Source: Trypanosoma brucei (taxonomy: Eukaryota). From it: 64,000 nt of DNA. Each line of letters starts with the position of its first letter. Position 1 is the stretch's first letter. The notes beneath the pieces are model-generated. The model ran no database searches and was not told the DNA's origin. It was given only the letters and a program-made list of their open reading frames with translations. Where the stretch lies: contig CM000207.1 of assembly GCA_000002445.1 (NCBI GenBank), forward strand, positions 2,592,001 through 2,656,000, in the 5' to 3' direction. The translations under genes were made by a program, and so were the position numbers. Of the stretch, positions 4,301-53,705 are shown piece by piece.

Positions 4301-4669
4301 TTGTTTTCTGTTGCTTTTGCGTGTAGTGTACCGCCTTTATTTTGTTTGCGAGGTCTTCCACTTTGTCATTTCTCTGGAAACCGCAATGCAAAAACACAAA
4401 CTGAAACGACATGGATACTCTCAGTTTCATGAAGTGTATGATCAGATCCTAAATGCGTCGTAGCATGGTATCTGTCACTTCTGTAGGATCCGTTTTAAGT
4501 GCCATTAATAAAGATAACATGTCTGTAAATATTGCCACTTTCGTTTTTATGCTCTCGTTGATCTTTATTACTGTTTTGAGTTTCATAAGTCCTGCATCCA
4601 TGGCTACACACTCGGCTCTGTAGCTTCATGCTAACCTGACTGCTCCTTTTTTCACTTTTACCGCATTAC

Positions 4670-7530
4670 CTTGTCAAGGATGTATTATCGCGGCGGCACC
4701 AGAGGGTTCGTCCAGTATCACTGACCCATCTGTCCACACTTGGTAATTGTAGTCTTTGAGTTTACGTAACTTTTGAATTGTGTGTCTTTTCTCGCTGTCG
4801 GAGGCATCAGAATGGAGACCATCTGGTGCTGTAGTGTTGAGGTATGGTCTCCTCGCCAGTTGCAATGCGCTTGCCGTGTGTGGTTCCTCCGGTTCGTCTA
4901 CTTCCTCATACAAGTATGACACATTCTCCAGGAGCGTGCATATCATATGACTAGGTGGGAAGATTCTTTCCACTGTGTCGGATGATGCCTTACTATTCGC
5001 CTTCCTTGTTCAATAGTATTATATTGCTCGTCTATGAGTAATATAATCTATCTGGTGAAGGAGGGCCTCCTTTATGACAACATGCCTGCTCGCTTACGTT
5101 GGAACACCCGCAATAACATGTGCCTCCTGCGCTTGCACTCGTTCAAGCTGCTTTTTGTCTGATTGAAAGGCATTGAACCACCATGCCGCAATACCATAGC
5201 ATAATTTTTCCTGGATTAAGGCTAAAAAAAAATGCTCTAACACTTTCTTTACTCGCTCCCTATTCAGGTGATGCAACAGCCCTTAGTTTCATTAATCTCA
5301 TAGTTGCTGCTGTTTGCAGGGTGTGAGCATTTTTTCTTACTCAGTCCTTTGTTTGGCTGCATTGTCACCCCAAGGAGTCTGTGGTTTCTTGTCTAATTTA
5401 ATCTGCGCTCTCCTAGAAATAAGTGTAGTGAGTCGCGGTCTCTCACCACAAAGAACATGTATTCCGCTTTTTCTGAAGACACATCCATACAGTCCTCTCC
5501 TAACCAGCTCACTATACAATACATCCCTGTTTGTACCGTCTGCCGAATAGCTTCCTGGTCAGTTTTAGAGCGTACTATCGTGAGGCCGTTTGCGAAGAAG
5601 CAGTATTTAAGGACTGTCATGGCATTTAGTTTCGCACTGAGAGAGTCCATTGCGATAATGAATAGCAACAGCCCCAACACGGAACATTGTGGAACACCAC
5701 ACGTGAGTTATATTTTCTTTGAGAGGGATGTTGTTTATTCGTACTACTTTAGTCCGTCCCTCAAGGAAATTTGCAACCCATGCAATAAAGTGCATGCCTA
5801 TCTCATATCTTTTTAGTGCATCCATTATGCACCCGTGATACACAGAGTCAAATGCCCTCGCATAATCTGTGAATACCGCTGCAGCTGTTTCTCCTGCTAT
5901 TCTATGTGTCACGAAGTCTGTGAGTGCCATCAGGGCCTCTAACTTAGACCTCCCTGGACGAAAAGCGGATTTCTGTAGTTGCGCCTTACATTCTACCGTG
6001 TCTCGTATGCGTCTCGCTACAATCCTTTCTATTAGCTTACAGAGAGTGCTATTGAGCGTGATGAGCCGGAATGATGACATACACTTGGCAGGTTTGTTGT
6101 TCTTGAGTAGTGGGACGATAACTCCATGCTTCCATTTCTCCGACACCCGGTTTCTCTGTAGGCTACAGTTGAATTGCTTGAGGACACGTTTCTTGCTACA
6201 GCGTCCTAATTGCTTCAACCATTCACAATGTATATTGTCCTTACCGGAGCAAGTGCCTGAAGAGAGTTCCTTCAGTTCTGTCTCAAGTTTTGCAATCGTT
6301 ATTAGTGCGAATTCTCCACTCACTCGTTAACGTGTACTCATGTGAAGAGCATCTGGTGCTTTTGTCGACCTCTCTCGATACATCTGTGCTAGTTTATTAA
6401 CTTGCTGTCTACATGTTAAAATGTGGTCGTTTACTACCAGAACCGGAGATGTCAGTGGATTCGATGCGTCAATGGACTTAACTAAATTCCAACTTTTTGT
6501 ATCGGTCACTGACATATTTGACACATTTTTCTTCCACCGTTGTAGGGATTTTTCAGCGAGAACCTTCCTTCTCTTGTATATAAGGGAACCTCTCTGTGCT
6601 TTTAACTTGTATATTCTTTTATTGTTGTGTCAATACGGTCAGTTCTCGTGTCCAAAACGGTGGCGATTCTTCCTTACCTTTCTGTGTTTTTTCTTTGTTG
6701 CTGTGCGAATGCCTTTAGCCACAGCCTCATTCATAGGATCCACATTCTTTCTTGATTTCCTTAATTTTTACACCATTGTTACACTATACACTTTTCTAAA
6801 CTTCCGTCAATTTGCTTTGTTGCAAACATAAAACACCTTTAGTGGCTTTGTAATGGCGATAATTTCTACACCAATCCCAGTACACACCTCGAACGGTTAT
6901 CCGGTAGTGGTGACTATCTGGACTGAGTTTTATCTCCCATCTTGTGACTTCGCAGTCTCTGTACATCGTAACGTCGGGAGACGACCTGGTTTCCATGTGA
7001 GCCGTTCTTCTCGTTGGTGTTCCATCATTTGCAATTTTGATATCATTTTGTATACATCAGTCTACAATGCATTCTCCTGCTGTATTATTGGGGCGAAGCG
7101 GGTCCCATAAGTTATGATGTGCGTTGGTATCGAATCCTATTATTAGTGATACAGTTCAACTTTGAAGGCTTTCAAGCGTGGAGTTAGTGACATTTTTGTT
7201 CTGTGGGAAGTAAGCTGATTTGACAGTTAAAGTTGTATCAGATGAGGACATCAGTGTTGCCGAGACTCTTTCCGGCTGTCTTTCCGTCCTACGGACATTG
7301 GATGACTCCCACGCCATCTTTGATTATAATGGAAACATTGCAAAAATGTGGAGAGCGTGCCATTTCCATGTGTTTGTATCCACTAATTTTCAATGCGCAG
7401 TATTCTTTTGCTGCCAAGTGAGTCTCCTGCAATAAACAAAAAAATACCATATCCTCGTGGAGCTTCTTCTCAAGGCCATTCGCTTCACCTTGGAGCAACC
7501 CCCAGAATTCCACTGGAATGCACAAATCAT
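4670..7530 (-). mobile_element. Degenerate ingi-related non-LTR retroelement (DIRE-like); coding region broken into several ORF pieces; boundaries approximate
   Basis: Minus-strand ORF pieces align to the ingi ORF in this window in collinear order at roughly 35-60% amino-acid identity. 7289-7525 matches the APE endonuclease N-terminus (EFWGLLQGE...CLLQETHL vs MQWNCAGLSQGK...CLLSETRM). 6796-6996 matches the endonuclease C-terminus (SPDVTMYRDCEVTRW...SPDSHHY vs TPDVTLSRNCTVYTW...SPDSDHH). 5607-6323 matches RT motifs (FRPGRS, FTDYARAFDSV). 5393-5680 matches the RT C region. 5094-5276 and 4674-4973 match the RNase H start (YQVWTDGSVILDEPSGAAAI vs YELWTDGSVSLGEKSGAAAL). Confidence 0.7.
5607..6323 (-). 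pseudogene. Reverse-transcriptase domain fragment of the DIRE-like element
   Basis: A 238-aa ORF carries RT motifs (LITLNSTLCKLIERIVARRIRD, FRPGRS, VFTDYARAFDSV) and is homologous to ingi RT residues about 520-700. Confidence 0.7.
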
Positions 7531-7858
7531 GGGACAGGGATCCTGTTCCATATCTCCGTTAAGAAGTAGTAGAAGCCGATGTATCTCAACTAAGGCACGC
7601 CTGCACATGCAAAGGAGCAATCTAATATATTTATTCACTCCAGAGTGCCGATGCTGCTACTTTCTCCTTTTTTGGTCGCTGAAAGCCTGTTACCAGCCCC
7701 AATCCTGTTGAACTATGTATAATGCGTGCACTTGGCTTCATCCTGGACGAAGTAATAGACCCTGGAACTACGATGAGGTGGCCGACGTCACCAGCGATAT
7801 TTCATAATTTTTATAAAATTCAGCAAATAAATTTTTGACAATAATCCTTAAAAGAAAT

Positions 7859-9300
7859 TCAAAACAGAAAGCTCATAAAATATGCAGCAATTAAAGAAAA
7901 CTTCTTATTTACAGGAAAATTGGGATCTTTGCAAGTGCTACTTTTCGATTTACAACTGATGTCCTTTTCGCAAGTTCCTTTGTCTGTTCGATGTTTTGAA
8001 CATTTCTCTTCGTTTTTGTCGCCTCCTTGAGCTTTCGCCTGTGCACCTTGTTGTTCTTTTGCCTTTTCGGATATAATAAGCATTTCTTTCTTTATAAGCT
8101 GCACTTTCGTCCCATTTTCATGGTGGTTTGCATGGCGAGTTATTCATGTTGGAAACCTTGCACGCTTGTTCTTTAGACACTCGTTGCTTTGCGGAAGGAC
8201 TTGTCGTTGTTCTGGCCCCTTTAATTTAGTGTAGAACCAAAAAACCGTGTTTTCTAGGGCTGCCGACCGGGAAAGTAACGTCTTCGTCGCTTCTTTTGTA
8301 GGTAGGTGCGCCGCGTTTCTGTTTATGTGGTCAATAGCTCTAGCTCTGGTGTTATTTGGCTAAGCCACGGCGTGTCCGTGTCACTTGTTACTTGTCCTGG
8401 AAGTTTGCCGTTCCATTTGTAGCATCCTTCCGTTTCTCTGTTGGCCGTCACACGAGTTTTTGAATGCCCCAGGTAAGAATTAGTGTCATCTCTTGTGACG
8501 TATTTCACGACGTCTTTTAATATTTCTGTTGGTGAACTTGCCAGTGCATTGGTGTCGCCGTCCGCCATGCCCTTTTTAAACACTTTTTGTATTAGACAGT
8601 CTGTCGGTTCAGCGTTATCCGCCCAGTCCACCGTGGCTCTGACACCTTTTCAGCACGTGTGCTGAGTTTCGCCTGATTTTGAGCCGCACACACGGGCTAG
8701 TGCTGCTGCTAGCCCTTTTGTTTTGGCATCGTTTATTGTCTGTTGCGCTGCCCTCAGTCGACTGTGCGTGAGCTGTGATTTGCTTAGTATTGGTACTAGC
8801 ACCGTTAGAAATTTCCTTTTATGCGCCGCAGTCAACTTGGCAGTTGCAGCCTTCAAGTCGTTGTGATTATTTGCTTTTATCTTATCCAGTGGTTTTGCGC
8901 CTTCTGGCCAATTGGTGTAGAGGCTGTGCTACGGTTTTGTCTCCTTCAAAGTCTCTGGTGATTGATTCTGACAACTTTGCTTGTCGTCTTTGTGTTTAAA
9001 AACCTGCAAAACTGATGCGTTCGCAGTACTGAGGTTTAAAGCGTGCAGTTTGTTGAATGCTTCTGACTCAGTTGTCGTCGCAGTAGACTGTTTATAACTA
9101 GTTGTTGCGGCTGCCGCTAGCTCGCAAAGCCGTCGGGCCGCTTCCCTGTTGCCTACCGCTGGCACGGTTTCTGTTACCTGTCTTGATTCAAAAATAAACG
9201 CTGTTGTCAATAATACTGCTTGCTTTTCTCACATCATCCCTTGCTTTCGACTTGTGCTGGTGAAGGTGTGCAGTTTGGGATATCATCGTGTTATTGCAGC
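7859..9300 (-). pseudogene. VSG: VSG pseudogene (fragmented)
   Basis: ORF 7859-8104 ends in a VSG C-terminal domain plus GPI-signal-like tail (CKDPNFPVNKKFSLIAAYFMSFLF). Upstream pieces 8323-8631, 8650-8856 and 8929-9210 are in different frames and no signal peptide is present. Confidence 0.55.
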
Positions 9301-10361: not shown

Positions 10362-11852
10362 TTAGAAGCTTTTTATTATAGAAGCAAAAATTCCAGTCAA
10401 AGAGGGTCCTTTACTAGAACAGATTTGCTTCCTGTGGTGTTTGAGTTTGTGCTTGTTTTTGTTGTTGTTGTTTGTGAAGAGTATTTTCGCATTTGCTCTC
10501 TCCGTCATTATATTTGCACCCAAGTTTCTTGTTGCAAGAATCTTTTTCTTCACCTGTGCACTCCTCTTCCTTTACTTGGTTTTGGGGTGTCGCTTTAGTT
10601 GCTTTTTCTGCTCTCTTCGCCGCTTCACCTGAAAAATAGGCCAAGGTTAGGGCGTATTTTTCTGTTTCCACGGCCTCTTTAACGCTTGTTTCCACTGTTG
10701 TGTCGCCTCTTGTAAACTTTATGTTTCTGTCGTCCACTCCTATGAAAAAACATCCTTTAGTTGTTTACCTGTGCCACCAAGTATCTGTTGGACTTTCTTT
10801 TTGCGTTCACCAGCGTCTTGTTTTAGGGTAGTAACATCCGTTGTTGTTGTGAGAAGTATCGTCTGTATGTCGTTGTCGCTGGCGAGCTCATCCACTGTTT
10901 CGTCCTGTAGTGTCTTCACTTTGGGGGACGAGCCCCGTTTTAGTGTACAGATTGCATTGGCTATCGCCTCGGCTGTTGTTAAGAAGTGGTCGCTGTTATT
11001 GTCTGCGGCTACACAGCTTGCGCCGTCTAAGAGTTTGATGTCCACTGGTTGTAGGGTTTGCTTGTGCAGGGCCGCTGATGCAAACGCTACACCGTTGCTA
11101 ACGCTTGCTGCTTGTGCATTGTCGCCGCAGCCGGCCTTGCTGTTGTGCTGTGCCTTGCTGCCTGCTGGCGTTCCTTTGTGCTAGACTTCTATTTTGAGGT
11201 CGGGGAACGCGAAGTCAGTGATGGGCGTCAGTTTCACTTTGGTTATCTTGGCCAGGTCTGTTGCTGCGGCTGTTAGCTTATTTTTTGAGGCAGTTGTTAC
11301 TTCGCATCGTTTGGTTGGAGTCGCTGCCAGTTTCGCCCGCGCCTGGCACTTGCCAGTACCGGTCGTAAAGTATTTGTTGCTGTCGTGCTCTTTGGCTTTC
11401 GACTCCGAGAATTTTGCCGTCTCTGTCGCGCCCATCCGCTGTAGCGCGGCGATGTTTCGTTGCCTTTTTGCCAACAGCGCCACGGCTGCGCCGAGCGTCT
11501 GTTGATGCTTATTGATGTCTTTTAGGACCGCCGCAGCTCGCTGGCTTGCTAGCGAAGCGAGGACTCCAGCTAGTATTGACCTCATGCCTGGCGAGGATTT
11601 TGCCGCCGTTAGTGTTAGCATTCGTTGTTCTTTTGAAAGCTCGCTAGCCCTCGTAATCAGGTCGTTCTCTACTTGTCTGTAGTGTTTTCTCACCGCCTCT
11701 AACCACTCGCCTTCGTCGCACGGAGTTTGGATGGCGTCCACTTTTTCGTCGGAGTCCGCTGCAGTCGCAGTTGCCAGCAGTAGTGCCATCAACAACGCTG
11801 GTGTGAGACCGAGTGTTTGTCGGCGTGAAAATAATACCTTAGTCTTTAACAT
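10362..11852 (-). pseudogene. VSG: VSG pseudogene (frameshifted)
   Basis: ORF 11181-11852 has a signal peptide and an a-type N-terminus (MLKTKVLFSRRQTLGLTPALLMALLLATATAA...). ORFs 10740-11045 and 10414-10737 continue the body in other frames. The C-terminus is Cys-rich but lacks a hydrophobic GPI signal. Confidence 0.75.
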
Positions 11853-12038
11853 TGATTTCTGAGTTGTCTTTCCTTGTCCGGTAGTTTGTCAAGGTGGAGG
11901 AAATTAGCGGTATTTGATTTCTTGGGCTGCATCTAGTTTGTGGTGCTAATTTATTATGGTTGTAGCTGTGTGAAGATAGCTTTCCGTTCAGACACACGCT
12001 AGTTTAAATTCTCTGGTTGGTTTTTTCTGCGGGTTATC

Positions 12039-12050
12039 TTTGTTTGAAGC
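12039..12050 (+). repeat. Target-site duplication (5' copy) of the ingi insertion: TTTGTTTGAAGC
   Basis: An identical 12-mer sits immediately 3' of the ingi A-run at 17309-17320. Confidence 0.85.
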
Positions 12051-12127
12051 CCCTGGCGATGCCGGCCACCTCAACGTGGTGCCATGGTCCAGTACCCCGT
12101 ATCATCGGGGGAAGCCAAGAGCCAGCA
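12051..12127 (+). promoter_or_regulatory. Conserved about 77-nt 5' signature of ingi/RIME (homologous to the L1Tc Pr77 internal promoter)
   Basis: The sequence ccctggcgatgccggccacctcaacgtggtgccatggtccagtaccccgtatcatcgggggaagccaagagccagcaacg is present. Its role as a promoter is established knowledge for this family, not something visible here. Confidence 0.55.
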
Positions 12128-15100
12128 ACGTTCCTCTCATGGGGAACACTGCTGTGCTCCGGCTACGGCATCATACAGCACAGGGATCAGCAGCGTCTTG
12201 CTGGGACACCGTTTTTCATTTGTCGGTCCCTGGGCACGTGCCAGCGTGCCATCAGCAGTATCATCCGCACTAAGATGCTGCTGTCCGGTGATGTGGAAGA
12301 GAATCCCGGCCCGTCGTTGCGCGGGATGCAGTGGAACTGCGCCGGGCTATCTCAAGGAAAGAGATTAGCACTCCACAAAACCCTTGTTGATGAGCGGATC
12401 GCCTTTTGTCTGTTGAGCGAGACAAGGATGACGCCTGGAGAGGCGGCTTGCTTTAGCGTTGCTGGCTACCAACATCACGGAATAGCTCGTAACTGCAAAG
12501 GAGGTGGTGTATCAATACTAGTGAGGGAGGACCTACCAGTCGAGACCGGTATGGCCGTTATTGGTCGCATTGAACAAGTGCATGCAACAATTCACCTTGC
12601 ACGTGGAACGGCGCTGACTGTCACGTCGGCATACATCCCACCAAAACACACCTTCACGGCAACTGACCTAGATACGCTTCTGACGACTGACGGTGCCCAG
12701 CTCATCGGTGCAGACGCTAACGCACACGCGTTGGCATGGGATCGCGCGAGCCCACCAAATACCAAGGGTGAAACCCTCACACAGTGGTGCATTGACAACC
12801 AGTTTCTGGTATGTAACACTGGTGGGTGCACCAGGTACGCGCGCCACCACGGGGAGTCCACCCCTGATGTGACGCTGTCAAGGAATTGCACAGTGTACAC
12901 GTGGACATCGCTGTATTCTCCCGATAGCGATCACCATAACATATTTTTCGACGTTATCGTTGGAGACGACACAGATGCACTGAGTTGCACGCGGCCTCGA
13001 ATGCCCATGTACGCATGGCTAAAAGCTAACTGGAGGAATTTCCGTCTCAAGGTTGACGAGCTCTGCAGGAAAATTGGTAGAGAGAAGAACGTCAACACCC
13101 TGGAACAGAAATTGAGCTCCGCCATCCGCATTGCGACGAAGGTCTCCGTCCCCCGTGGCTGCAGAGCAACGCCACCACATTGGACACCTGAGCTCGCGAA
13201 ACTCGATGAAGAGATCGCTGGATGCGGACCCTCCCACCGAAGGGAAAAGTTGGTAGCCACGCGTAAGCAGATCCTGGACCGTACCACAAAGAAGAGATGG
13301 AGCACGCTATGCTCCAGACTTGCGGTGTCAGACCGCTGCAGTTGGCACATGGTCAAGAAGGTATATGCGCCACGACCACTAACAACACCGGCTGTACTTG
13401 TAGATAACGCGGCCATCACGGACTACCGTCAAGCTGAGAGGTTCAGTAAACTGTACTCGTCCCGTGCAAGAAGGCACCCCGACTCACACCCACCGGCACC
13501 AATAAAGACGATAGCGAGTGAGTTCAGTCCCATCACGATGGCTGAACTACGGAGATCGATCAAACTGCTACCGAGTGGATCCGCAGCCGGACCTGATTGC
13601 TTATACAACGAGGCACTGCAACATCTCGGCAGAACAGCGCTGAATGTTGTTCTGAGGCTATTCAATGAGAGCCTACGAACGGGAGTCGTGCCGCCTGCAT
13701 GGAAGACTGGTGTTATCATCCCCATCCTGAAGGCCGGAAAAAAGGCGGAGGACCTCGATTCTTACAGGACTGTGACGCTCACGAGCTGTCTCTGCAAAGT
13801 CATGGAACGCATAATTGCCGCGAGGCTTAGAGACACTGTTGAGTCCCAGCTGACGCCGCAGCAATCAGGCTTTCGCCCCGGATGCTCAACGCTCGAACAA
13901 CTCCTGCACGTCCGCGCTGCCCTCTGCCGTCCCACGCACCAATCTCGTACGGGTGCTGTATTCGTTGACTACGAGAAGGCATTTGATACAGTAGACCACG
14001 ACAAAATTGCGAGGGAAATGCACAGAATGAAGGTATCACCCTACATTGTGAAGTGGTGCGTATCATTTCTGAGTAACCGAACTGGCAGAGTGAGATTCAA
14101 GGAGAAGCTTTCCAGAAGCAGAACATTTGAGCGAGGAGTGCCACAAGGAACTGTCCTTGGCCCAATCATGTTCATTATTGTCATGAACTCGTTGAGCCAA
14201 CGCCTTGCAGAAGTGCCGTTACTGCAGCACGGATTCTTTGCAGACGACCTAACGCTACTTGCGAGGCACACAGAGAGGGATGTCATCAACCACACACTAC
14301 AATGCGGTCTAAACGTGGTGTTACAGTGGTCAAAAGAGTACTTCATGTCTGTCAACGTAGCGAAAACAAAGTGCACACTCTTCGGGTGTATAGAGCGCCA
14401 CCCCCTTACATTGCAACTGGACGGCGAAAGAATAGGAGCTGACAGGATACCGAAGCTTCTAGGAGTAACATTCCAGTGTCAGCAGGGGATGGCAACACAT
14501 GCGGCCGAAACGAGACGCAAGATGGACTTCCGACTACTGCAGATAGTGTCCATCTCAGCTTCTACATGGGGGCCAAGACGACAAGTACTGAGAGCTTTTT
14601 ATCTAGCACTCGTACAGGCACACACCATGTATGGCATTGAGGTATGGTACTGGGACGCTTCGGAACGGAGTCGCGACCTCCTCTCAGCAGCACAACACAA
14701 AGCCAGTCGCATCATAGCCGGCATACCGCATGGGACGCGCAAAGAGGACTCTCTGCTGGAAGCAAACCTCCTGCCACTCAAGACGACCACTCTTGTGCGC
14801 AGCATGAAATTCATGCTGATGTGTGAGTCACGAGGCGGATGTTTGCGGCGCAGTGCTGAAGAAGTATACCACAGCAAACACCCAGTCAGAGCCCAACATT
14901 CCCGCATCATGCGGTCCTACCCCCACCTCCGCATTGAGCCACGCGAGCACCCACTAGAGACATCGACGCTCCGCCACAGCTGCCGACCGATATTTCACAC
15001 GCAGATAAAGCCTGTGTGCGCTGATGACCCTGACGATGTCAAAAGGGAGGCTTCCGAAAAGTGGATTGAACGACATTTTGCACGGAGGGGGAAGGAGCTA

Positions 15101-17032
15101 CCGCGGCGAGAGCACTACGAATTGTGGACTGATGGATCCGTGTCCCTCGGTGAGAAGTCCGGAGCAGCTGCCCTGCTCTACAGAAACAACACGCTGATTT
15201 GCGCACCTAAGACAGGAGCAGGGGAACTCTCATGCAGTTACAGAGCGGAATGCGTAGCATTAGAGATAGAACTGCAACGGCTGCTGAAATGGCTTCCGGC
15301 ATACAGAAGCACACCTAGCAGGTTGTCCATCTTCTCTGACTCGCTGTCAATGTTAACAGCACTGCAGACAGGCCCCCTAGCCGTAACGGACCCAATTCTA
15401 AGACGACTATGGAGGCTTCTGCTTCAAGTTCAGAGAAGGAAGATACGTATCCGACTGCAATTTGTGTTTGGCCATTGTGGCGTGAAACGGAATGAAGTTT
15501 GTGATGAGATGGCCAAAAAGGCCGCAGATTTACCACAGTTGCGAGACACATGGATCCCCGACATCATTGCTTATGCGAAGCGAGTGCTTAAGTCGGAAGA
15601 AGTCCATGAGAACACTCATAGGTTTGGTATCACGGGCAACCACTTTCCAACAAAACATAAGGAAGAACTGACGAGGGAAGAAGAAACGGCACTGGCACGC
15701 TTTCGGGTTGGGTCTTCAAGACACTATGGATGGATGTTGCGAAAGATCAACCCGAGTGTGCCTCCACAGTGCCGATGGTGCAACCCGCAACATGCAGAGA
15801 TAGGGCCAACAATACAAACAGCCCCAACTGTTGCGACACGCACTCTTCAAAGAACCTCCGAACCGACAAAATGTACGGAATGTGATGCCACATACCAATG
15901 CCGCTCGAGTGCTGTAACGCATATGGTAAACAAACATGGCTTTGTGCGAGCTGATGCCCTCCGGAGGATCAAATACGGCGATGCAACACCTGCAGTGGAT
16001 ATCCCCCCGGAGCCCCCTCCAGTGGTGGCGATCGTTCCTCTACCATCGAGCACACGAGTCCCGATGAGACCGCAGGTGCTTCATTGTACCATCTGTGCCT
16101 CCAAATTCGCAGTGCCAGGCCGACTACTACACCACCTTAGAACAATACATGGCATAGGCAGCGGTAGTTGCCGCGTGAAAAGGGGGCGAGAGAACGAGGA
16201 CTCAGTGCAAGGAGATGGTAGAGCCCCAGCAGCGCCAGCCTCTCAGGATACACGGAAGCTGCCGTTTCAATGTGACCTGTGCGAGGCGAGCTTCGGTACA
16301 CGCTCTTCCCTGTCACTACACAAGAAATTCAAACATAAAAGCATAGTGATGGAGGACGGTACCGTGGTGTTGGTGCAATTCCCTCGTAAGCGTGCCCGTG
16401 AGGGAAACGTTGACGTCCCGGGGAAGGGCGAGGTGCAGTGCGGTGTGTGCCAAAAAGTGCTCAGTTGCAGGGACTCCCTCATCCGACACTGCAAGGCTTT
16501 TCACAAAGGTGAGGGAGTCGAGCTTAAATGCAGCAAAAGCACAAAATTTTGTGCCACTGATTCCCCGCATACAAACACATCCATGTTGGTGTGCCCGACA
16601 TGCGGAAGGCAGTGTGCTAGCAAAACTGGCCTCACCCTACATCAAAAGAAGATGCACGGTATGAAGGTAGAGCGCGCTGTTACCAGCCAACGCGGCGACT
16701 GCGAAGAAACGTCGCTGCACTTGATGAGCTGTCCCGGTTTGAAGGAGTTACGTGTCAGGTTTGCGGTAGAAGGTGAGTGTGTGCAGGATGTATGCTTCTC
16801 CAAAAGGCTGGCGCAGTTTCTCATTGCGGTTGAACGGAGCCGGCCGCATGTGAAGTCCTCACCTAAGGTAACAGTCATACAACCCACTCTCCCTTCTGCA
16901 ACTTCCCCCCTTATTGCCGAGTGTGGAGCTAGCAGGAAAAGCATCGGACGCAGGAATAGTCCAGACACCCTTAGAGACAGAGGAGGTATGCTGTCAACAA
17001 GCAACAGAAACAGAAAGAGGAGAAGAGAATAA
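12059..17032 (+). CDS. ingi multidomain protein: 2A-like peptide, APE-type endonuclease, reverse transcriptase, RNase H, 4x C2H2 zinc fingers; uninterrupted ORF
   Basis: The ORF track gives 12017-17032 (1671 aa). The first in-element Met is at 12059 (MPATSTW...). Domain order: DVEENPGP at aa about 92-99, endonuclease about 12330-13000, RT motifs (FRPGCS, FVDYEKAFD, FADD) about 13560-14300, RNase H (YELWTDGS...GHCGVKRNEVCDEMAKKAA) about 15120-15530, C2H2 fingers about 16080-16650. No frameshifts or stops. Confidence 0.85.
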   Translation: MPATSTWCHGPVPRIIGGSQEPATFLSWGTLLCSGYGIIQHRDQQRLAGTPFFICRSLGTCQRAISSIIRTKMLLSGDVEENPGPSLRGMQWNCAGLSQGKRLALHKTLVDERIAFCLLSETRMTPGEAACFSVAGYQHHGIARNCKGGGVSILVREDLPVETGMAVIGRIEQVHATIHLARGTALTVTSAYIPPKHTFTATDLDTLLTTDGAQLIGADANAHALAWDRASPPNTKGETLTQWCIDNQFLVCNTGGCTRYARHHGESTPDVTLSRNCTVYTWTSLYSPDSDHHNIFFDVIVGDDTDALSCTRPRMPMYAWLKANWRNFRLKVDELCRKIGREKNVNTLEQKLSSAIRIATKVSVPRGCRATPPHWTPELAKLDEEIAGCGPSHRREKLVATRKQILDRTTKKRWSTLCSRLAVSDRCSWHMVKKVYAPRPLTTPAVLVDNAAITDYRQAERFSKLYSSRARRHPDSHPPAPIKTIASEFSPITMAELRRSIKLLPSGSAAGPDCLYNEALQHLGRTALNVVLRLFNESLRTGVVPPAWKTGVIIPILKAGKKAEDLDSYRTVTLTSCLCKVMERIIAARLRDTVESQLTPQQSGFRPGCSTLEQLLHVRAALCRPTHQSRTGAVFVDYEKAFDTVDHDKIAREMHRMKVSPYIVKWCVSFLSNRTGRVRFKEKLSRSRTFERGVPQGTVLGPIMFIIVMNSLSQRLAEVPLLQHGFFADDLTLLARHTERDVINHTLQCGLNVVLQWSKEYFMSVNVAKTKCTLFGCIERHPLTLQLDGERIGADRIPKLLGVTFQCQQGMATHAAETRRKMDFRLLQIVSISASTWGPRRQVLRAFYLALVQAHTMYGIEVWYWDASERSRDLLSAAQHKASRIIAGIPHGTRKEDSLLEANLLPLKTTTLVRSMKFMLMCESRGGCLRRSAEEVYHSKHPVRAQHSRIMRSYPHLRIEPREHPLETSTLRHSCRPIFHTQIKPVCADDPDDVKREASEKWIERHFARRGKELPRREHYELWTDGSVSLGEKSGAAALLYRNNTLICAPKTGAGELSCSYRAECVALEIELQRLLKWLPAYRSTPSRLSIFSDSLSMLTALQTGPLAVTDPILRRLWRLLLQVQRRKIRIRLQFVFGHCGVKRNEVCDEMAKKAADLPQLRDTWIPDIIAYAKRVLKSEEVHENTHRFGITGNHFPTKHKEELTREEETALARFRVGSSRHYGWMLRKINPSVPPQCRWCNPQHAEIGPTIQTAPTVATRTLQRTSEPTKCTECDATYQCRSSAVTHMVNKHGFVRADALRRIKYGDATPAVDIPPEPPPVVAIVPLPSSTRVPMRPQVLHCTICASKFAVPGRLLHHLRTIHGIGSGSCRVKRGRENEDSVQGDGRAPAAPASQDTRKLPFQCDLCEASFGTRSSLSLHKKFKHKSIVMEDGTVVLVQFPRKRAREGNVDVPGKGEVQCGVCQKVLSCRDSLIRHCKAFHKGEGVELKCSKSTKFCATDSPHTNTSMLVCPTCGRQCASKTGLTLHQKKMHGMKVERAVTSQRGDCEETSLHLMSCPGLKELRVRFAVEGECVQDVCFSKRLAQFLIAVERSRPHVKSSPKVTVIQPTLPSATSPLIAECGASRKSIGRRNSPDTLRDRGGMLSTSNRNRKRRRE

Positions 17033-17308
17033 TAAACGAATAACAAAAATAAAAACAAAAGGATTGCTAATTGACATCTTTTGGAGAGTCCGGGGTGAAG
17101 GGATTCTCGCCCCATCTGCTGTATTCCGTTCAACTGCGGAGCTACAACAAAAATTATAGAGAGTGTGTGTGTTAGGATGAATGAAAAAGGGAGACTCTGC
17201 CACAGTCGCCAGACCGATAGCATCTCAGGGCTCTACGGTGATGGCTGATGGCCGCGCCAGTGGGTGGAAACTCTCACGAAGGCACGAAGAAAATTCTAAA
17301 AAAAAAAA

Positions 17309-17320
17309 TTTGTTTGAAGC
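17309..17320 (+). repeat. Target-site duplication (3' copy): TTTGTTTGAAGC
   Basis: Identical to 12039-12050. Confidence 0.85.
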
Positions 17321-18654
17321 AACAACGAAGGCCTCATGGGAGACCTTGGCGGAGTAAATTTGGCCGGCATTTTTAGGAAATAGTAAGGGTTGGTATACAT
17401 CAACTCTCAAAAAAGCTGGTGACTTTGTGTAAAAAAATTAAAAGTCTGGTTTATAGTTTTTTATTTCTAATTTTTCTTCTGTTGTTATTTTTACGATAAT
17501 TCCTTAAATTTAAGGCATCTATTAGGTTAAGTTTTTACTTAATTTAAATAAACATGCAAATATTTAAAATATTTCCCATATTTATGTTACTGGGAATTCA
17601 AATCTAATGGTGTGCAATCCTGTCATTCTCCACTACAGCCTTGTCAGTACGTAGTGGTTGGGCGACAACATAACGTCTTTGCATAGCTCGTATGAGCATC
17701 TGCATCTGGGGTGCTCTGAAATCAGGCTTGTGTTAAGTCTTCTTTGTTTAAAACTAGATAATTTGGGTTCGGAAGGCGCCTTCTTATCTGGTTTTGCTCT
17801 GTTAATACGATGCATTAGTTTTGATTCACCACAAGTCTTATGGTAACTATTCGTCCACTATAAGGCCTTTGTGTCTGTTCATCATATCAATACGTAATTG
17901 AAAGAGTACTATCATTGATTCTCTCAACTTCATATACCTCGTCTATATCTTTATATATGTTCTTTGTTAAGCAGCCTCAGCGTCTTTATTTTTCATGTCC
18001 TGTCCGTAGTAAAACATTAGTAGTTCTTTTTTTTAAAAATTCTTACTCTATATATAATATTATATATATTTTGGAAAGTATTGAATAGGAGTACTGTATT
18101 TTATGGGAAAATTAGACAATACCTCACGCTTATCCAATTCTTCCACGCATATCTCTCACAGCTCATTATTGAAATGCGCCTTCAGATTAAAAACGAGTCG
18201 TGATCATTTTCAGCGTTGAATCTATCCATTTTGCAAATACGGGATAGAAACAGCTTTTTCTGCTCATGTATTTTTTCTTGTGTTTTTTATTCCGCCTCCG
18301 AATGCTTTACTCTGTATTTTTTCCTTCTATTTTATCTTCGCACTGCTCCTGCGTGTGGCATAGTGACACCATTTGCTTTATACAGCACACATGCTTCTTC
18401 TCCCTCAATTTTACTTTCTTTTCCCTCTTCTGCGATGATGTCAGTCGACATGTTTGTGTCCTAAACTCTTCATATTCCATATAATACTTTTTTATATTCC
18501 TCACTTCCTTATTTTTATCTTTCGTTCTCCATTCTTTAAATAGTTTTCCTGTGATTCTCTCTTCAGTTTCTTATTCTTTCTCACCCTCACATCAATTCAC
18601 TTACTCTTATTGCACGTTAACCATTGCCGTAAGTGTTTCTATTTGTAAGCTCAT

Positions 18655-18735
18655 TCATTACTATTACTGCTCTTATTATAATATTAGTATATATACACTC
18701 ACAACACTCTCCTATTATTATTATTTAATAAAGAA
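18655..18735 (-). repeat. VSG-associated 70-bp repeat (single unit)
   Basis: The plus strand reads cattactattactgctcttattataatattagtatatatacactcacaacactctcctattattattattt. On the minus strand this is TRR triplets + GAGAGTGTTGTGAGTGTATATA + ATATTATAATAAGAGCAGTAAT. Confidence 0.8.
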
Positions 18736-18946: not shown

Positions 18947-20476
18947 CTACAAATCCACAAAATCAGAAACAATCGGGGCGAATTGTTTTTTTAGGAGAAA
19001 ACTGGAGTCTTTGCATTCTGTTCCTTCCCATTTGCAGCCATCTTTGCAATCTTTCTCTGGTTTCCCTTTGCATTTTTCTGTTGTTGCCTCTCCTGTTCTT
19101 GCTTTTCCGGTTGTTCCTTCTACAGCCTTCGGTTTGCATTCGCTCTTGACTTTATCATAATTGCACTCTGCGCCTGTGCAACCGCTTTCATTGCCGTTGA
19201 ACGTTTCGCATAGTCTCGGACCCGCCGTTGTTATGCTCGGCTGTGCTGGTGCTATGCCCGGCTGTGTTGCTGCTGTTAGTGTACCTGCTGGTGCGATGGC
19301 AACTTGTTTGAATATTGCTTCAACTTGCCTTCGCATTGACGTTATTTGACGCTGCGTCGTATCTCGGTGAGCCTTCGCTTGTTCTGCTGCGTTAAGCTTG
19401 TCCACCGCTTCCTGCAGCTTTTGTTCCCACCCTATTTCTGTTGCCGATGCTTCGCTTGTTGAAGCAGTGGCCTTTGTCAGGTCTATGCAGGCGGTGCCGG
19501 CGTGATCTTTGCAGGTGTTGTCGTCGGTTTTGGTTCCTAGGATGACGGCCCTCCCACCGGCGTTGCCCACGTCCCTGTAGAGCCTCTTCAGCGCTGCCAG
19601 TCTCTTCGTTATCGCTTCGGCTGTTAGTTTGATCTGCTTGTTTTTCTTGCAGATGGAATCGTATGTTGCGTAGTGAGTTTTCATGTTTCCTGAGCTCCAA
19701 TCCGAGAGGTTTGGCGTTGAAGAGTCGCCGCATATATCTTTGCTTTGTGTTGACCCTTTGGCACATATACAGACTAGCGCTCCGCAGATGGCCTCGCCAG
19801 CTTTTGGTAGTTCGCAGGTTTTTTGCCGGCTGGTGTCTACTTTGACGTTGCACTTGTGGTTGCTTTGCGCCGGAACGGGGTCGACGTTATACGCCGCCTT
19901 GTTAAGTAGGGTGGTTACGGCTGCTTTAAGACCAGTTACATGTGCTTTGTGGTTGGTCTCCCAGTTTTTTTTGAGTTTCTCTGCTTCCTCCAGCAGGCTT
20001 GCAACTTGTAACGCGGCTGATCTACCGTAGCTTGAAGTTAACTTGACTTCTTCGAGTTTCAGCTTGTCTGGTCGTATATTGTTGTCTTTTGCTTTCACTT
20101 TCGCAGTTTCCCACTTTTTCCAGTGGCTTTTGCATGGGTCTGTCGCCGCTTTTCCTTTGCAGGGGACTGGTTCATCAGTTGGTTTGGAAGCGTCATCCGA
20201 GAATTGCTTGCTCCAGTTAGGATCTGCTAGTGTCATGTTTAACGCCTCCATTATGGTAAGGTCATTTGTATCTATTTCCTCGTCGCTTAGAGCACTCATA
20301 TCTGCTTCTGTTAGTTTTATGAACTCGCACAGAGCGGTCAACTCCGCGGCGTTTTTGCTTTGGTCCGGGCCGGCTGCCTCGCAACGCATAGCGCTGCAAA
20401 CGAGGGCTATAAAAATAAGCATTGAGGGTGCTAGTCTTCGAGTCATCGTTTGCTGTATCGGAGTGTTTATTCGCAT
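18947..20476 (-). CDS. VSG: VSG, full-length ORF (509 aa) with an atypical, probably defective, GPI-signal C-terminus
   Basis: It has an N-terminal signal peptide (…RRLAPSMLIFIALVCSAMRCEAAG) and an a-type N-terminus (AAELTALCEFIKLTEADMSALS). A Cys-rich C-terminal domain ends in CKDSSFLLKKQFAPIVSDFVDL, where a hydrophobic SVVSAAFVALLF-type tail is expected. Confidence 0.85.
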   Translation of the reverse strand: MRINTPIQQTMTRRLAPSMLIFIALVCSAMRCEAAGPDQSKNAAELTALCEFIKLTEADMSALSDEEIDTNDLTIMEALNMTLADPNWSKQFSDDASKPTDEPVPCKGKAATDPCKSHWKKWETAKVKAKDNNIRPDKLKLEEVKLTSSYGRSAALQVASLLEEAEKLKKNWETNHKAHVTGLKAAVTTLLNKAAYNVDPVPAQSNHKCNVKVDTSRQKTCELPKAGEAICGALVCICAKGSTQSKDICGDSSTPNLSDWSSGNMKTHYATYDSICKKNKQIKLTAEAITKRLAALKRLYRDVGNAGGRAVILGTKTDDNTCKDHAGTACIDLTKATASTSEASATEIGWEQKLQEAVDKLNAAEQAKAHRDTTQRQITSMRRQVEAIFKQVAIAPAGTLTAATQPGIAPAQPSITTAGPRLCETFNGNESGCTGAECNYDKVKSECKPKAVEGTTGKARTGEATTEKCKGKPEKDCKDGCKWEGTECKDSSFLLKKQFAPIVSDFVDL

Positions 20477-27889: not shown

Positions 27890-28749
27890 TTTTTGTCTAG
27901 TGTTCCTTCTTGTATTATTTCTGGAGGCTTGAAGTGAACAAGGAGCTGTGTTTGGTGTAGAAAACATGACTTATGCCTAAGTATGCAGTGCTGGTCACAG
28001 TTATAGTCGACGTTGGTGGTGCGTTCCTTCTGCTTATGTTAGTTGCTTAGATTTTCGCCGCTTGCCCTGGCAACAGCTTAGTTTCTGCAGTCCCGCGCTT
28101 TGTTTTTTAGGTGCGTTACATAGGTTTGCGCATGGAACTGATGCCTTCTCTTTTTTACATTAGAGCTATTATTGATTGGTCCCTTTCCGCAGGTTGCTTT
28201 GCAAGTTCGAGTCGTTTACAAAATTCTAGTCAACCTTTTTGGCTTATCCATCACACATCTTCTCTATTACTGGTTATATTCAAGTGAAAATCAACGCCTA
28301 CTTCATCTTTAGACACTTGCCTCGGCGACGTTAAACATAATTTCTCCAGATAATTAACAGTTAAAGTTAATGAAATCATCTATGCAGTAGCGTATATTCA
28401 TTTTAAAGTAAAATGTGAAGAATCATCAGTGAGTCATTCTGAAGTATCACTTTTCTTTGTCTGCGCTGTTTTGATGCGTATGAACTGGTGACCACATTTG
28501 CCAGCAAACCAAACTCTGTCTTCATTTCAATATTCCTTGCTTCATCTCTTTGTATGTACGGACCACTGTCATTAATTTACTTTTTGAAACTGCGTGTATG
28601 CCATCTCACTCCATCCTTCTTTATCTTTCTGCTTTTACTTTAATATCATTGGCACATTTCTTTTCTTTTACTCCTTTACCTACTATCATTTCACCCTTAC
28701 CATCATTTTTAAACGCTTTCCTTTTTTGCCGTATAGTAAGGTATTAACA

Positions 28750-53494: not shown

Positions 53495-53705
53495 TCTCAC
53501 AATATTCGTATATTCACACTCACAACACTCCACTATCATTATCATTATTATTATTATTATTACTGCTCTTATTATAATATTCGTATATTCACACTCACAA
53601 CACTCCACTATCATTATCATTATTATTATTATTATTACTGCTCTTATTATAATATCCGTATACACACACTCACAAGACTTTCCTATCATTATTATTATTA
53701 TTAAC
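53495..53705 (-). repeat. Tandem array of three 70-bp repeats (units of about 70-76 bp)
   Basis: Three consecutive copies of …ctcttattataatattcgtatattcacactcacaacactccactatcattatcattattattattattattactg… are visible. This is the only multi-copy 70-bp array in the window. Confidence 0.85.

What the first reader, a model, noticed from the sequence alone, without database searches (positions are those of the whole stretch)
12039..17320. Full-length ingi retrotransposon with an uninterrupted ORF of about 1657 aa and a perfect 12-bp target-site duplication
Most genomic ingi copies are described as carrying frameshifts or stops. This copy has one continuous ORF covering every domain: 2A-like peptide, endonuclease, RT, RNase H and four C2H2 fingers. 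It also keeps the intact 5' signature, an A11 tail and identical TTTGTTTGAAGC flanks. Together these point to a relatively recent insertion of a potentially retrotransposition-competent element inside a VSG array. Note that the ORF also reads 14 codons upstream of the element boundary, to an ATG at 12017 in the flanking DNA.
Basis: partly seen in the sequence, partly recalled or inferred. Interest (0 to 1): 0.55.

Follow-up and report, generated by a model that had tools for sequence, protein, structure and literature searches.

The report
Intact ingi retrotransposon in VSG array
This is a complete, textbook copy of the well-known Trypanosoma brucei "ingi" jumping gene with its protein-coding frame undamaged, sitting among silent surface-coat (VSG) genes of the reference strain; it is correctly described but ordinary and already known.

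Summary
A 5,258-bp element (12051-17308, + strand) is flanked by an exact 12-bp duplication, TTTGTTTGAAGC, at 12039-12050 and 17309-17320. It ends in A11 and carries one open frame from ATG 12059 to the stop at 17030-17032: 4,971 bp, 1,657 aa. That matches the published "potentially functional" ingi exactly. [quoted passage not shown]

Two side details are wrong. Codon 12017 is TTG, not ATG, and no in-frame ATG lies upstream of the element. There are five C2H2 fingers, not four.

The insertion site matches 7 of 10 positions of the published Tbingi target signature. The flanks share nothing beyond the 12 bp. Neighbouring VSGs are exact matches to T. brucei brucei TREU927 proteins, so this is the reference genome, whose ingi/RIME copies have been catalogued. 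The element lies antisense in a VSG array, 186 bp upstream of a VSG pseudogene and 1,378 bp from that cassette's 70-bp repeat.

"Recent" and "competent" are plausible but unproven. The intact ORF implies under about 1-2% neutral decay. The perfect TSD dates it only weakly. One conserved 5'-stem base (position 35) is changed. Verdict: already known, low interest.

The parts
12017..12050 (+). Target site: 22 bp upstream plus the 12 bp that became the TSD. It matches the published Tbingi/TbRIME ('ingi4') endonuclease signature AxxxxxxxTxxxGTxGGxTxxx^xTxTxxTxxxxx.
   Evidence: 7 of 10 specified positions match. Only 0.6% of all positions in the window, both strands, score 7 or more. Signature taken from PMC3820030. 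The 22 bp upstream contain 12 T.
12039..12050 (+). 5' copy of the 12-bp target-site duplication TTTGTTTGAAGC
   Evidence: The 12-mer occurs only twice in the window.
12051..17308 (+). Full-length ingi (Tbingi) non-LTR retrotransposon, 5,258 bp, 53.0% G+C against 40.5% for the rest of the window
   Evidence: The literature gives ingi as 5.25 kb and 52.3% G+C, against 41% for the genome (PMC2323293).
12051..12129 (+). [quoted passage not shown] Contains the DPE motif CGTG at +25..+28 and the start ATG at +9. Position 35 (window 12085) is T where relatives have G.
   Evidence: 75% identical to the printed L1Tc Pr77 oligo, and 90% identical over 50 nt to Tcoingi (L001:4867). Exact match at 12061 to the ingi TALE target GCCGGCCACCTCAAC. 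DPE conservation from PMC4748587. Position-35 deviation.
12051..12298 (+). 5' RIME-homologous half (approximate 3' limit)
   Evidence: RIME-LAMP primer F3 matches element 231-249 in 18 of 19 bases and fails only at its last base, where RIME joins its 3' half.
12059..17032 (+). Single ORF: 1,657 codons plus a stop codon
   Evidence: Same length as the published potentially functional ingi ORF of 4,971 bp / 1,657 aa (PMC3447711).
12290..12313 (+). 2A-like ribosome-skipping motif DVEENPGP (aa 78-85)
   Evidence: The ingi 2A is reported active in translational recoding and sits in this N-terminal position (PMC3708506).
12326..12934 (+). AP-type endonuclease domain (aa 90-292)
   Evidence: Pfam Exo_endo_phos and Exo_endo_phos_2. 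The QWN, ET, GADANAH, PD and SDH motifs align with relatives.
13745..14470 (+). Reverse transcriptase domain (aa 563-804) with FADD catalytic motif (D729, D730)
   Evidence: Pfam RVT_1, E = 8.6e-44. Invariant columns in alignment A1.
15113..15526 (+). RNase H domain (aa 1019-1156): D1025, E1064, D1094, H1139, D1149
   Evidence: Pfam RNase_H, E = 3e-9. Invariant columns.
15872..16657 (+). C-terminal region with five C2H2 zinc fingers (aa 1272-1533), all spaced C-x2-C-x12-H-x4-H
   Evidence: Regex. Each finger alone hits C2H2 profiles. By analogy with the two-finger C2-L1Tc nucleic-acid chaperone (PMC5814959). dN/dS of 0.19 against the second copy over this region.
17060..17308 (+). 3' RIME-homologous half / 3' UTR (approximate 5' limit)
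   Evidence: RIME-LAMP primers F2, F1c, B1c, LB, B2 and B3 map to 17066-17286, five of the six without a mismatch.
17298..17308 (+). Poly(A) tail, A11
17309..17320 (+). 3' copy of the 12-bp target-site duplication
10414..11852 (-). Context, not part of the element: a VSG pseudogene whose ATG lies 186 bp from the insertion site
   Evidence: 71% identity over 100% coverage to 'Variant surface glycoprotein 1125.5528'. The homologue aligns through an in-frame stop. Translation shows a stop after codon 223 and a later frame change.
18699..18713 (-). Context: 70-bp-repeat core motif of the same VSG cassette, 1,378 bp from the 3' TSD copy
   Evidence: Exact match to the 70R-TALE target AGGAGAGTGTTGTGA. 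There are 10 hits in the window, all on the - strand, against 0.12 expected.

Best explanation
This is a canonical, full-length, coding-competent copy of the Trypanosoma brucei non-LTR (LINE-type) retrotransposon ingi (Tbingi). It lies in the T. b. brucei TREU927 reference genome and was inserted in situ by target-primed reverse transcription.

Shown here:
- the element boundaries
- an exact 12-bp TSD
- the A11 tail
- a target site resembling the Tbingi endonuclease signature
- one uninterrupted 1,657-aa ORF carrying 2A, AP-endonuclease, RT, RNase H and five C2H2 fingers, with all catalytic residues present

Inferred from the established model for the ingi/L1Tc clade:
- The element RNA starts at +1, either from the Pr77 internal promoter or by HDV-like ribozyme cleavage of a read-through transcript.
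- It is translated from the ATG at +9.
- The 2A motif releases an 85-aa leader from the enzymatic polyprotein.
- The endonuclease nicks the bottom strand at the left edge of TTTGTTTGAAGC, and RT copies the RNA from its poly(A) end.
- A second nick 12 bp away on the top strand produces the duplication.
- The C-terminal fingers act as a nucleic-acid chaperone, as in L1Tc.

The element landed antisense in a silent VSG array, between a VSG pseudogene and that cassette's 70-bp repeat. The intact ORF points to a comparatively young insertion. Present-day activity is not shown.
For: - Boundaries, TSD and tail.
- Flanks unique, sharing only the 12 bp.
- ORF of 1,657 aa with no stop, against 32-83 stops in the other frames. 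The length is identical to the published potentially functional ingi (PMC3447711).
- Domains. Five fingers. Catalytic residues present in every invariant column of an alignment with T. vivax, T. congolense and more distant relatives.
- The 12-bp TSD is the clade hallmark (PMC3820030).
- Target signature 7/10, reached by 0.6% of window positions.
- 5' signature matches L1Tc Pr77, Tcoingi and the published ingi TALE target.
- RIME-LAMP primers map to both ends.
- G+C 53.0%, against 52.3% published.
- Source genome: three adjacent VSGs are exact matches to EAN77417-EAN77419 of TREU927.
- Against the second ingi at window 1-1390, there are 20 synonymous and 13 non-synonymous differences, dN/dS 0.19, binomial P = 6e-6. 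The two copies therefore diverged mainly while under protein-level selection, that is, in replicating lineages rather than as dead DNA.
- 3.9% of possible substitutions in the ORF create a stop, so P(no stop) is 0.15 at 1% and 0.02 at 2% neutral divergence.
Against: Nothing contradicts the identity. The caveats concern competence and age.

1. Element position 35 (window 12085) is T. L1Tc, Tcoingi, Tvingi and TbSIDER1 all have G there. The change breaks the C3-G35 pair of the conserved 1-7/31-37 stem, and the predicted fold of this copy no longer forms that hairpin. I could not obtain a T. brucei ingi consensus, so I cannot say whether this is copy-specific.
2. Promoter activity was reported as not detected for the ingi/RIME 5' end in T. 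brucei (Garcia-Salcedo 2003, as cited in PMC1874656).
3. ingi is the largest source of siRNAs in T. brucei (PMC3447711), so expression is probably repressed.
4. A perfect TSD is weak dating evidence: P = 0.79 at 1% and 0.38 at 4% divergence.
5. No other T. brucei ingi copy beyond a 1.39-kb fragment was available, so divergence from the family consensus was not measured.
6. Rfam found no ribozyme family at the 5' end.
Confidence: 0.9

Rival explanations
1. The ORF is intact but the copy is dead or silenced. It is a genuine ingi insertion that cannot currently mobilise itself, either because its 5' Pr77/ribozyme stem carries a G35T change or because RNAi and its position antisense in a silent VSG array keep it unexpressed.
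For: - T at position 35, where four related families have G.
- The 1-7/31-37 hairpin is lost in the predicted fold.
- In L1Tc, most point mutations of conserved Pr77 bases abolish promoter activity (PMC4748587).
- ingi is the main siRNA source.
- No promoter activity was found for the ingi 5' end.
- The element is antisense to all VSGs and all 70-bp repeats in the window.
Against: - The Tbingi consensus at position 35 is unknown to me, and T may be normal for the family.
- MFE prediction cannot model the pseudoknotted ribozyme.
- Fold energies are not distinguishable from shuffles (z = -0.7 to +0.1).
- The proteins could still act in trans on RIME or other ingi RNAs.
Confidence: 0.3
2. The insertion is old and its ORF stayed open by luck or was repaired by gene conversion from other ingi copies, so the intact frame says little about insertion age.
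For: - ingi and RIME are reported to recombine in trypanosome genomes (PMC2854126).
- The perfect TSD is compatible with several per cent divergence.
- A second ingi in the same orientation lies 10.6 kb away.
Against: - The pure A11 tail and exact TSD show no decay at all.
- The nearest copy differs by 4%, including a 4-bp indel, so there has been no recent homogenisation with it.
- P(no stop) falls to 0.02 at 2% divergence.
Confidence: 0.12
3. Assembly artefact: a repeat collapsed or polished towards the family consensus, giving an apparently intact ORF that no single genomic copy has.
For: ingi is present in hundreds of copies, with about 470 5'-signature targets in strain 427 (PMC12975129). 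Repeats of this kind are hard to assemble.
Against: - The two ingi copies in the window are kept distinct at 96% identity, with a private indel.
- The junctions with unique flanks and the TSD are clean.
- From my own knowledge, not tested here, the TREU927 reference was assembled from clone-based Sanger data rather than consensus-polished long reads.
Confidence: 0.03
4. The element arrived by segmental duplication or ectopic recombination of a block that already contained an ingi, not by insertion at this site.
For: VSG arrays evolve by duplication and recombination, and several retroelement remnants lie nearby.
Against: - An exact 12-bp TSD immediately abuts both element ends.
- The target-signature match is 7/10.
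- No paralogue of the flanks exists in the window.
Confidence: 0.03

Closest known systems
Tbingi, the ingi LINE of Trypanosoma brucei (the 'potentially functional' form described in PMC3447711, PMC2323293 and PMC3820030)
   Same: - length of about 5.25 kb
- 79-bp 5' signature
- single 4,971-bp / 1,657-aa ORF
- 2A, APE, RT, RNase H and C2H2 in that order
- RIME-derived ends
- poly(A) tail
- 12-bp TSD
- target-site signature
- G+C of about 52-53%
- location in subtelomeric VSG-rich DNA
   Different: Nothing of substance. The only deviation seen is T instead of the cross-family G at element position 35, and I could not check that against a T. brucei consensus.
RIME (TbRIME), the 0.5-kb non-autonomous partner of ingi
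   Same: Its two halves correspond to the first ~248 bp and last ~250 bp of this element. It shares the 5' signature, poly(A) tail, 12-bp TSD and target preference. The diagnostic RIME-LAMP primers match this copy.
   Different: RIME lacks the central 4.7 kb and all coding capacity. Its internal junction falls inside the 2A motif, after D-V-E.
L1Tc of Trypanosoma cruzi
   Same: Same clade and same architecture: Pr77 (75% identical here), an N-terminal 2A, APE, RT, RNase H, C-terminal C2H2 fingers, a single ORF, a 12-bp TSD and relative site specificity. It is the source of most of the biochemical evidence used for the mechanism.
   Different: L1Tc is 4.9 kb and has two fingers rather than five. 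Its target signature is different (GAxxAxGaxxxxxtxTATG^A...). It shows little nucleotide similarity outside Pr77. Its host lacks RNAi.
Tcoingi (T. congolense) and Tvingi (T. vivax)
   Same: These are the best protein matches, at 42% and 39% identity, with the same domain order and 2A (GDVERNPGP). The Tcoingi 5' signature is 90% identical over 50 nt. The fetched Tcoingi copy also lies beside VSG genes.
   Different: They belong to different subclades with a different upstream target motif (PMC3820030). The fetched Tcoingi copy has its coding region split into 1,106-aa and 306-aa gene calls, whereas this copy has one continuous ORF.
Human LINE-1
   Same: An APE-type non-LTR retrotransposon that moves by target-primed reverse transcription. 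It has a poly(A) tail and TSDs, mobilises a short non-autonomous partner (Alu, compared with RIME here), and only a small minority of its copies are intact.
   Different: LINE-1 has two ORFs, no 2A and no RNase H. Its TSD length varies. Its target is TTTT/AA, which primes on poly(A). Here the primer end of the nicked strand (…CAAACAAA-3') is not T-rich.

Membership tests
ingi (Tbingi) non-LTR retrotransposon, ingi/L1Tc clade | Conserved 76-79-bp 5' signature (Pr77 hallmark) starting CCCTGG at +1 | tested here: met
   75% identical to the printed L1Tc Pr77 (published figure 76.6%). 90% identical over 50 nt to Tcoingi. Exact match to the published ingi TALE target. DPE CGTG at +25..+28. One deviation at position 35.
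ingi (Tbingi) non-LTR retrotransposon, ingi/L1Tc clade | Length of about 5.25 kb with a single long ORF of 4,971 bp / 1,657 aa | tested here: met
   5,258 bp. ORF 12059-17029 plus stop is 1,657 codons. Literature value from PMC3447711.
ingi (Tbingi) non-LTR retrotransposon, ingi/L1Tc clade | Domain order: N-terminal 2A, AP endonuclease, reverse transcriptase, RNase H, C-terminal C2H2 fingers | tested here: met
   Pfam, regex and single-finger scans, alignment with relatives.
ingi (Tbingi) non-LTR retrotransposon, ingi/L1Tc clade | Ends made of the two halves of RIME | tested here: met
   Tested indirectly. Seven published RIME-LAMP primer segments map to element 231-249 and 5016-5236, five of them without a mismatch. 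No full RIME sequence was available for alignment.
ingi (Tbingi) non-LTR retrotransposon, ingi/L1Tc clade | 3' poly(A) stretch | tested here: met
   A11 at 17298-17308.
ingi (Tbingi) non-LTR retrotransposon, ingi/L1Tc clade | 12-bp target-site duplication | tested here: met
   Exact 12/12, not extendable in either direction, and the only two copies of the 12-mer in the window. Hallmark stated in PMC3820030.
ingi (Tbingi) non-LTR retrotransposon, ingi/L1Tc clade | Conserved upstream target motif of the ingi4 subclade (AxxxxxxxTxxxGTxGGxTxxx^xTxTxxTxxxxx) | tested here: met
   7 of 10 positions match. Background frequency of a score of 7 or more is 0.6%. The match is relative, not absolute, as the family's 'relative site specificity' would predict.
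ingi (Tbingi) non-LTR retrotransposon, ingi/L1Tc clade | High nucleotide identity to reference T. brucei ingi sequences | tested here: inconclusive
   Only a 1.39-kb fragment of a second copy was available, at 96% identity. No T. brucei ingi DNA or protein is in the searchable collections.
Retrotransposition-competent ('master') element | Uninterrupted ORF with all catalytic residues | tested here: met
Retrotransposition-competent ('master') element | Functional 5' promoter/ribozyme | tested here: inconclusive
   G35T relative to four related families breaks one pair of the conserved stem. The family consensus is unknown, and there was no Rfam hit.
Retrotransposition-competent ('master') element | Demonstrated mobility or expression | not testable with these tools
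   No retrotransposition assay exists for trypanosomes (PMC3820030), and no expression data were accessible.
Retrotransposition-competent ('master') element | Insertional polymorphism (an empty allele in related strains) | not tested
   No other T. brucei assemblies are in the collections. ingi presence/absence differences between subspecies are documented elsewhere (PMC2854126).

The most novel reading that the evidence does not exclude
This copy is one of the very few live master ingi elements of the reference strain and is insertionally polymorphic among T. brucei strains. Because it sits between a 70-bp repeat and the VSG sequence of one cassette, 70-bp-repeat-bounded gene conversion could carry an autonomous retrotransposon into an active VSG expression site. 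That would link antigenic-variation recombination to retrotransposon expression and spread.
Probability: 0.05. Interest if true: 0.45.

Novelty: already known. Interest (0 to 1): 0.15.

Why it matters
It matters little beyond annotation. ingi is a long-characterised family, and the source is the T. brucei TREU927 reference genome, whose ingi, RIME and DIRE copies are stated to have been identified and annotated (PMC2323293).

The practical value is modest:
- The copy is a clean, coding-intact reference example. It could serve as a template for building the retrotransposition assay the field still lacks.
- It could be used to design copy-specific probes.
- Its 1,657-aa product appears not to be deposited as a protein in public protein collections.

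The position-35 change would be worth a glance in a family-wide alignment. It may separate copies that are coding-intact and also transcription/ribozyme-intact from copies that are coding-intact only.

Tried and rejected
- Rfam E-value scan of 11500-17800 for an HDV-like ribozyme: no match. This is uninformative, because the family may not be modelled.
- Exact look-ups of the ingi protein from four alternative start codons: absent.
- Fetching the TREU927 locus through its VSG protein: not on record. The reference annotation of this copy could therefore not be read.
- The homology search returned only T. vivax, T. congolense and more distant relatives, with no T. brucei ingi. Divergence from the family consensus, and the count of intact copies, could not be computed.
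- Bringaud et al. 2009 (PMC2756862) is not held. The number of potentially functional copies appears only in a figure of PMC2323293 and not in its text, so I give no number.
- Two literature string searches for the T. brucei 5' signature around position 35 found nothing usable. The Pr77 mutagenesis text does not state which mutants cover that position.
- An apparent one-base discrepancy with the ingi TALE target (GCCGGCACCTCAAC) is a typo in that paper's main text. Its appendix gives GCCGGCCACCTCAAC, identical to this copy.
- A search for a paralogous empty site in the window found none.
- Pfam and tblastn with the window's own VSGs failed to classify the ORF next to the insertion. A database homology search then showed it is a VSG.
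- Secondary-structure energies of the 79-nt signature are not distinguishable from shuffled controls in any species, so MFE folding cannot settle the ribozyme question.
Full report
**1. The observation**

- TTTGTTTGAAGC occurs exactly twice in the 64-kb window, at 12039-12050 and 17309-17320.
- Between the two copies lies a 5,258-bp element (12051-17308). It begins CCCTGGCG… and ends in eleven A's (17298-17308).
- The base before each repeat copy differs (C against A), and so does the base after (C against A). The duplication is therefore exactly 12 bp.
- A BLAST of 1.5 kb of each flank against the window finds only the flanks themselves and three weak matches (65-76% identity) far downstream of the junction. 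The 12-mer is thus not part of a longer local repeat.
- The frame beginning at ATG 12059 runs 1,657 codons to a stop at 17030-17032. The other five frames of the element carry 32-83 stops each.

Two side statements are wrong.
- Codon 12017 is TTG, not ATG. The frame is open back to TAA at 12005-12007, but there is no in-frame ATG before 12059. The tool listed 12017 only because it uses bacterial start codons.
- There are five C-x2-C-x12-H-x4-H motifs, not four, at aa 1272, 1343, 1405, 1461 and 1512. Each one submitted alone has a C2H2 zinc-finger profile as its best Pfam match.

**2. What it is**

Pfam places four domains on the protein:
- AP-type endonuclease at aa 90-292
- RVT_1 at aa 563-804, E = 8.6e-44
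- RNase H at aa 1019-1156
- C2H2 fingers

DVEENPGP lies at aa 78-85.

The closest database proteins are the ingi elements of T. vivax (39%) and T. congolense (42%). In an alignment with these and more distant relatives, this protein carries every invariant residue: the endonuclease N/E/D-N-H/SDH motifs, RT FADD (D729, D730), and RNase H D1025, E1064, D1094, H1139 and D1149.

The literature describes a potentially functional ingi as a 5.25-kb element. It has a single 4,971-bp ORF encoding 1,657 aa, flanked by two RIME halves (PMC3447711). The match in ORF length is exact.

The first 79 nt behave as the clade signature.
- They are 75% identical to the printed L1Tc Pr77 sequence, against a published figure of 76.6% (PMC1874656).
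- They are 90% identical over 50 nt to the 5' end of a T. congolense element that I fetched (L001).
- They contain the published ingi TALE target GCCGGCCACCTCAAC.
- They contain the conserved DPE motif CGTG at +25..+28 (PMC4748587).

Published RIME-LAMP primers (PMC4358998) map to element 231-249 and to 5016-5236. F3 fails only at its last base, which is where RIME joins its two halves. The RIME-derived ends are therefore roughly 1-248 and 5010-5258.

G+C is 53.0% against 40.5% for the rest of the window. Published values are 52.3% and 41%.

**3. Source and surroundings**

Three intact VSG genes just downstream are exact matches to EAN77417, EAN77418 and EAN77419 of T. brucei brucei TREU927, on a 3,057,547-bp record. 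They lie at 18947-20476, 26315-27967 and 29041-30591, all on the - strand.
- The window is therefore from the reference genome.
- The record size fits chromosome 9 by my recollection, which I did not test.

The ingi protein is not in the protein collection under any of four possible starts. That suggests it is not deposited as a CDS.

VSG sequence lies on both sides of the element.
- Pfam VSG_B and A-type VSG domains are found at 18947-20476, 26315-27967, 29041-30591, 51130-52053 and 54003-54998.
- VSG_B fragments are found at 1561-2685 and 8929-9210.
- The ORF nearest the insertion (11181-11852, - strand) had no Pfam hit. It is nevertheless 71% identical over its whole length to 'Variant surface glycoprotein 1125.5528'.
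- A longer homologue aligns in one frame from 11888 to 10722, straight through the stop at 11181-11183.
- The translation shows further stops and a frame change near 10740. It is a VSG pseudogene.

The 70-bp-repeat core motif occurs ten times in the window, always on the - strand, against 0.12 expected. The nearest copy is at 18699-18713.

The ingi therefore sits antisense to the array, inside one VSG cassette. It is 1,378 bp from the cassette's 70-bp repeat and 186 bp from the pseudogene's ATG.

**4. How it got there and how it works**

A 12-bp TSD is stated to be the size-conserved hallmark of ingi-clade elements (PMC3820030).

The same paper gives the Tbingi/TbRIME target signature as AxxxxxxxTxxxGTxGGxTxxx^xTxTxxTxxxxx. 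The 34 bp ending at 12050 match 7 of the 10 specified positions. Only 0.6% of all window positions reach that score.

Together with the pure poly(A) tail and the unique flanks, this is the footprint of target-primed reverse transcription at this site.

The remaining steps are inferred from work on the clade, mostly on L1Tc:
- RNA begins at +1, by internal promoter and/or HDV-like ribozyme cleavage (PMC1874656, PMC4035085).
- There is no spliced leader.
- The 2A motif causes ribosome skipping (PMC3708506).
- The C-terminal C2H2 region acts as a nucleic-acid chaperone (PMC5814959).

Because the mature RNA would start at +1, and because no ATG lies upstream, the 14 open codons in the flank are irrelevant.

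**5. Age and competence**

In this ORF, 3.9% of possible single-base substitutions create a stop. The probability of remaining open is 0.38 at 0.5% neutral divergence, 0.15 at 1% and 0.02 at 2%. Indels are ignored here and would lower these values further. The intact frame is thus real evidence for a comparatively young insertion.

The perfect TSD is weak evidence, with P = 0.79 at 1% and 0.38 at 4%.

A second ingi, cut by the window edge (window 1-1390, same orientation), is 96% identical.
- In the shared 1,113 coding bases there are 20 synonymous and 13 non-synonymous differences. That gives dS 0.080, dN 0.016 and dN/dS 0.19, with binomial P = 6e-6 against neutrality.
- The 3' UTR differs at 22 of 276 positions.
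- The two copies therefore diverged mainly under selection on the protein, as expected if both descend from replicating lineages.

Several caveats apply.
- Element position 35 is T (CCATGG). L1Tc, Tcoingi, Tvingi and TbSIDER1 all read CCAGGG.
- That change removes the C3-G35 pair of the conserved 1-7/31-37 stem, and the predicted fold no longer forms the hairpin.
- I could not obtain a T. brucei consensus to tell whether this is private to the copy.
- ingi is the major siRNA source in T. brucei.
- Promoter activity was reported as not detected for the ingi 5' end.
- No retrotransposition assay exists.

**6. Comparison with what is known, and verdict**

Every defining feature of Tbingi that I could test is met. 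Only nucleotide identity to reference ingi sequences could not be properly tested, because the collections hold no T. brucei ingi.

The literature already states the following:
- A few ingi copies are retrotransposition-competent or potentially functional (PMC2323293).
- The ingi, RIME and DIRE copies of the T. brucei genome have been identified and annotated.
- ingi is typical of subtelomeric VSG-rich DNA and is polymorphic between subspecies (PMC2854126).

The finding is therefore a correct reading of raw sequence, with two small slips, of an element that is already known in kind. It lies in the reference genome, so this copy has almost certainly been catalogued. Interest is low.

Noticed in passing
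window 1-1390 (+): The 3' 1.39 kb of a second ingi in the same orientation, cut by the window edge. It is 96% identical to the studied copy and open over all 369 visible codons, with the same stop position. It has a private 4-bp (GTGT) deletion in the 3' UTR and a tail AAGAAAAAAA. The two same-orientation copies bracket a 10.6-kb segment and could support ectopic recombination.
   Followed up: partly
window 12085 (element position 35): T where L1Tc Pr77, Tcoingi, Tvingi and TbSIDER1 all have G (CCATGG against CCAGGG). This breaks one base pair of the conserved 5' stem of the Pr77/ribozyme region. I could not determine whether it is copy-specific or normal for T. brucei ingi.
   Followed up: partly
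window 5393-6323 (-): A degenerate reverse-transcriptase remnant: RVT_1 at E = 2.8e-11 and E = 0.014 in two adjacent ORF pieces. It has no nucleotide similarity to the ingi. It is probably a DIRE (degenerate ingi-related element) or another old retroelement.
   Followed up: no
window 10414-11852 (-): A VSG pseudogene that Pfam does not recognise. It is 71% identical to 'VSG 1125.5528' of another T. brucei strain. It has an in-frame stop after codon 223 and a later frame change. The ingi lies 186 bp upstream of its ATG.
   Followed up: yes
window 18699-53684 (-): Ten matches to the 70-bp-repeat core motif AGGAGAGTGTTGTGA, all on the - strand (0.12 expected by chance). They include a cluster of three spaced 75 bp apart at 53520-53684, and they mark VSG cassette boundaries. 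The ingi separates the motif at 18699-18713 from its downstream VSG pseudogene.
   Followed up: partly
window 1561-2685 (-) and 8929-9210 (-): Fragments of VSG_B-type pseudogenes (Pfam E = 5e-4 to 8e-8) on the left flank. They show the array continues on both sides of the ingi.
   Followed up: no
window 12290-12298: The junction between the 5' RIME-homologous part and the ingi-specific core falls inside the 2A motif, after D-V-E. RIME therefore carries only a truncated 2A.
   Followed up: partly
L001 (T. congolense IL3000, CAEQ01002527.1) 1456-9256: The fetched Tcoingi copy also lies directly downstream of two VSG_B genes. Its coding region is split into separate 1,106-aa and 306-aa gene calls. 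This is a parallel association of ingi-clade elements with VSG loci in another species.
   Followed up: no
literature (PMC12975129): The main text gives the ingiR-TALE target as GCCGGCACCTCAAC, but the appendix gives GCCGGCCACCTCAAC. The window sequence agrees with the appendix, so the main-text string is a one-base typo.
   Followed up: yes
window 57513-58643 (-), 61543-62871 (-), 38618-39391 (-): Long --strand ORFs (376, 442 and 257 aa) with no Pfam hit at E <= 0.001. Given that Pfam also missed the VSG at 11181-11852, these may be further divergent VSGs or pseudogenes.
   Followed up: no
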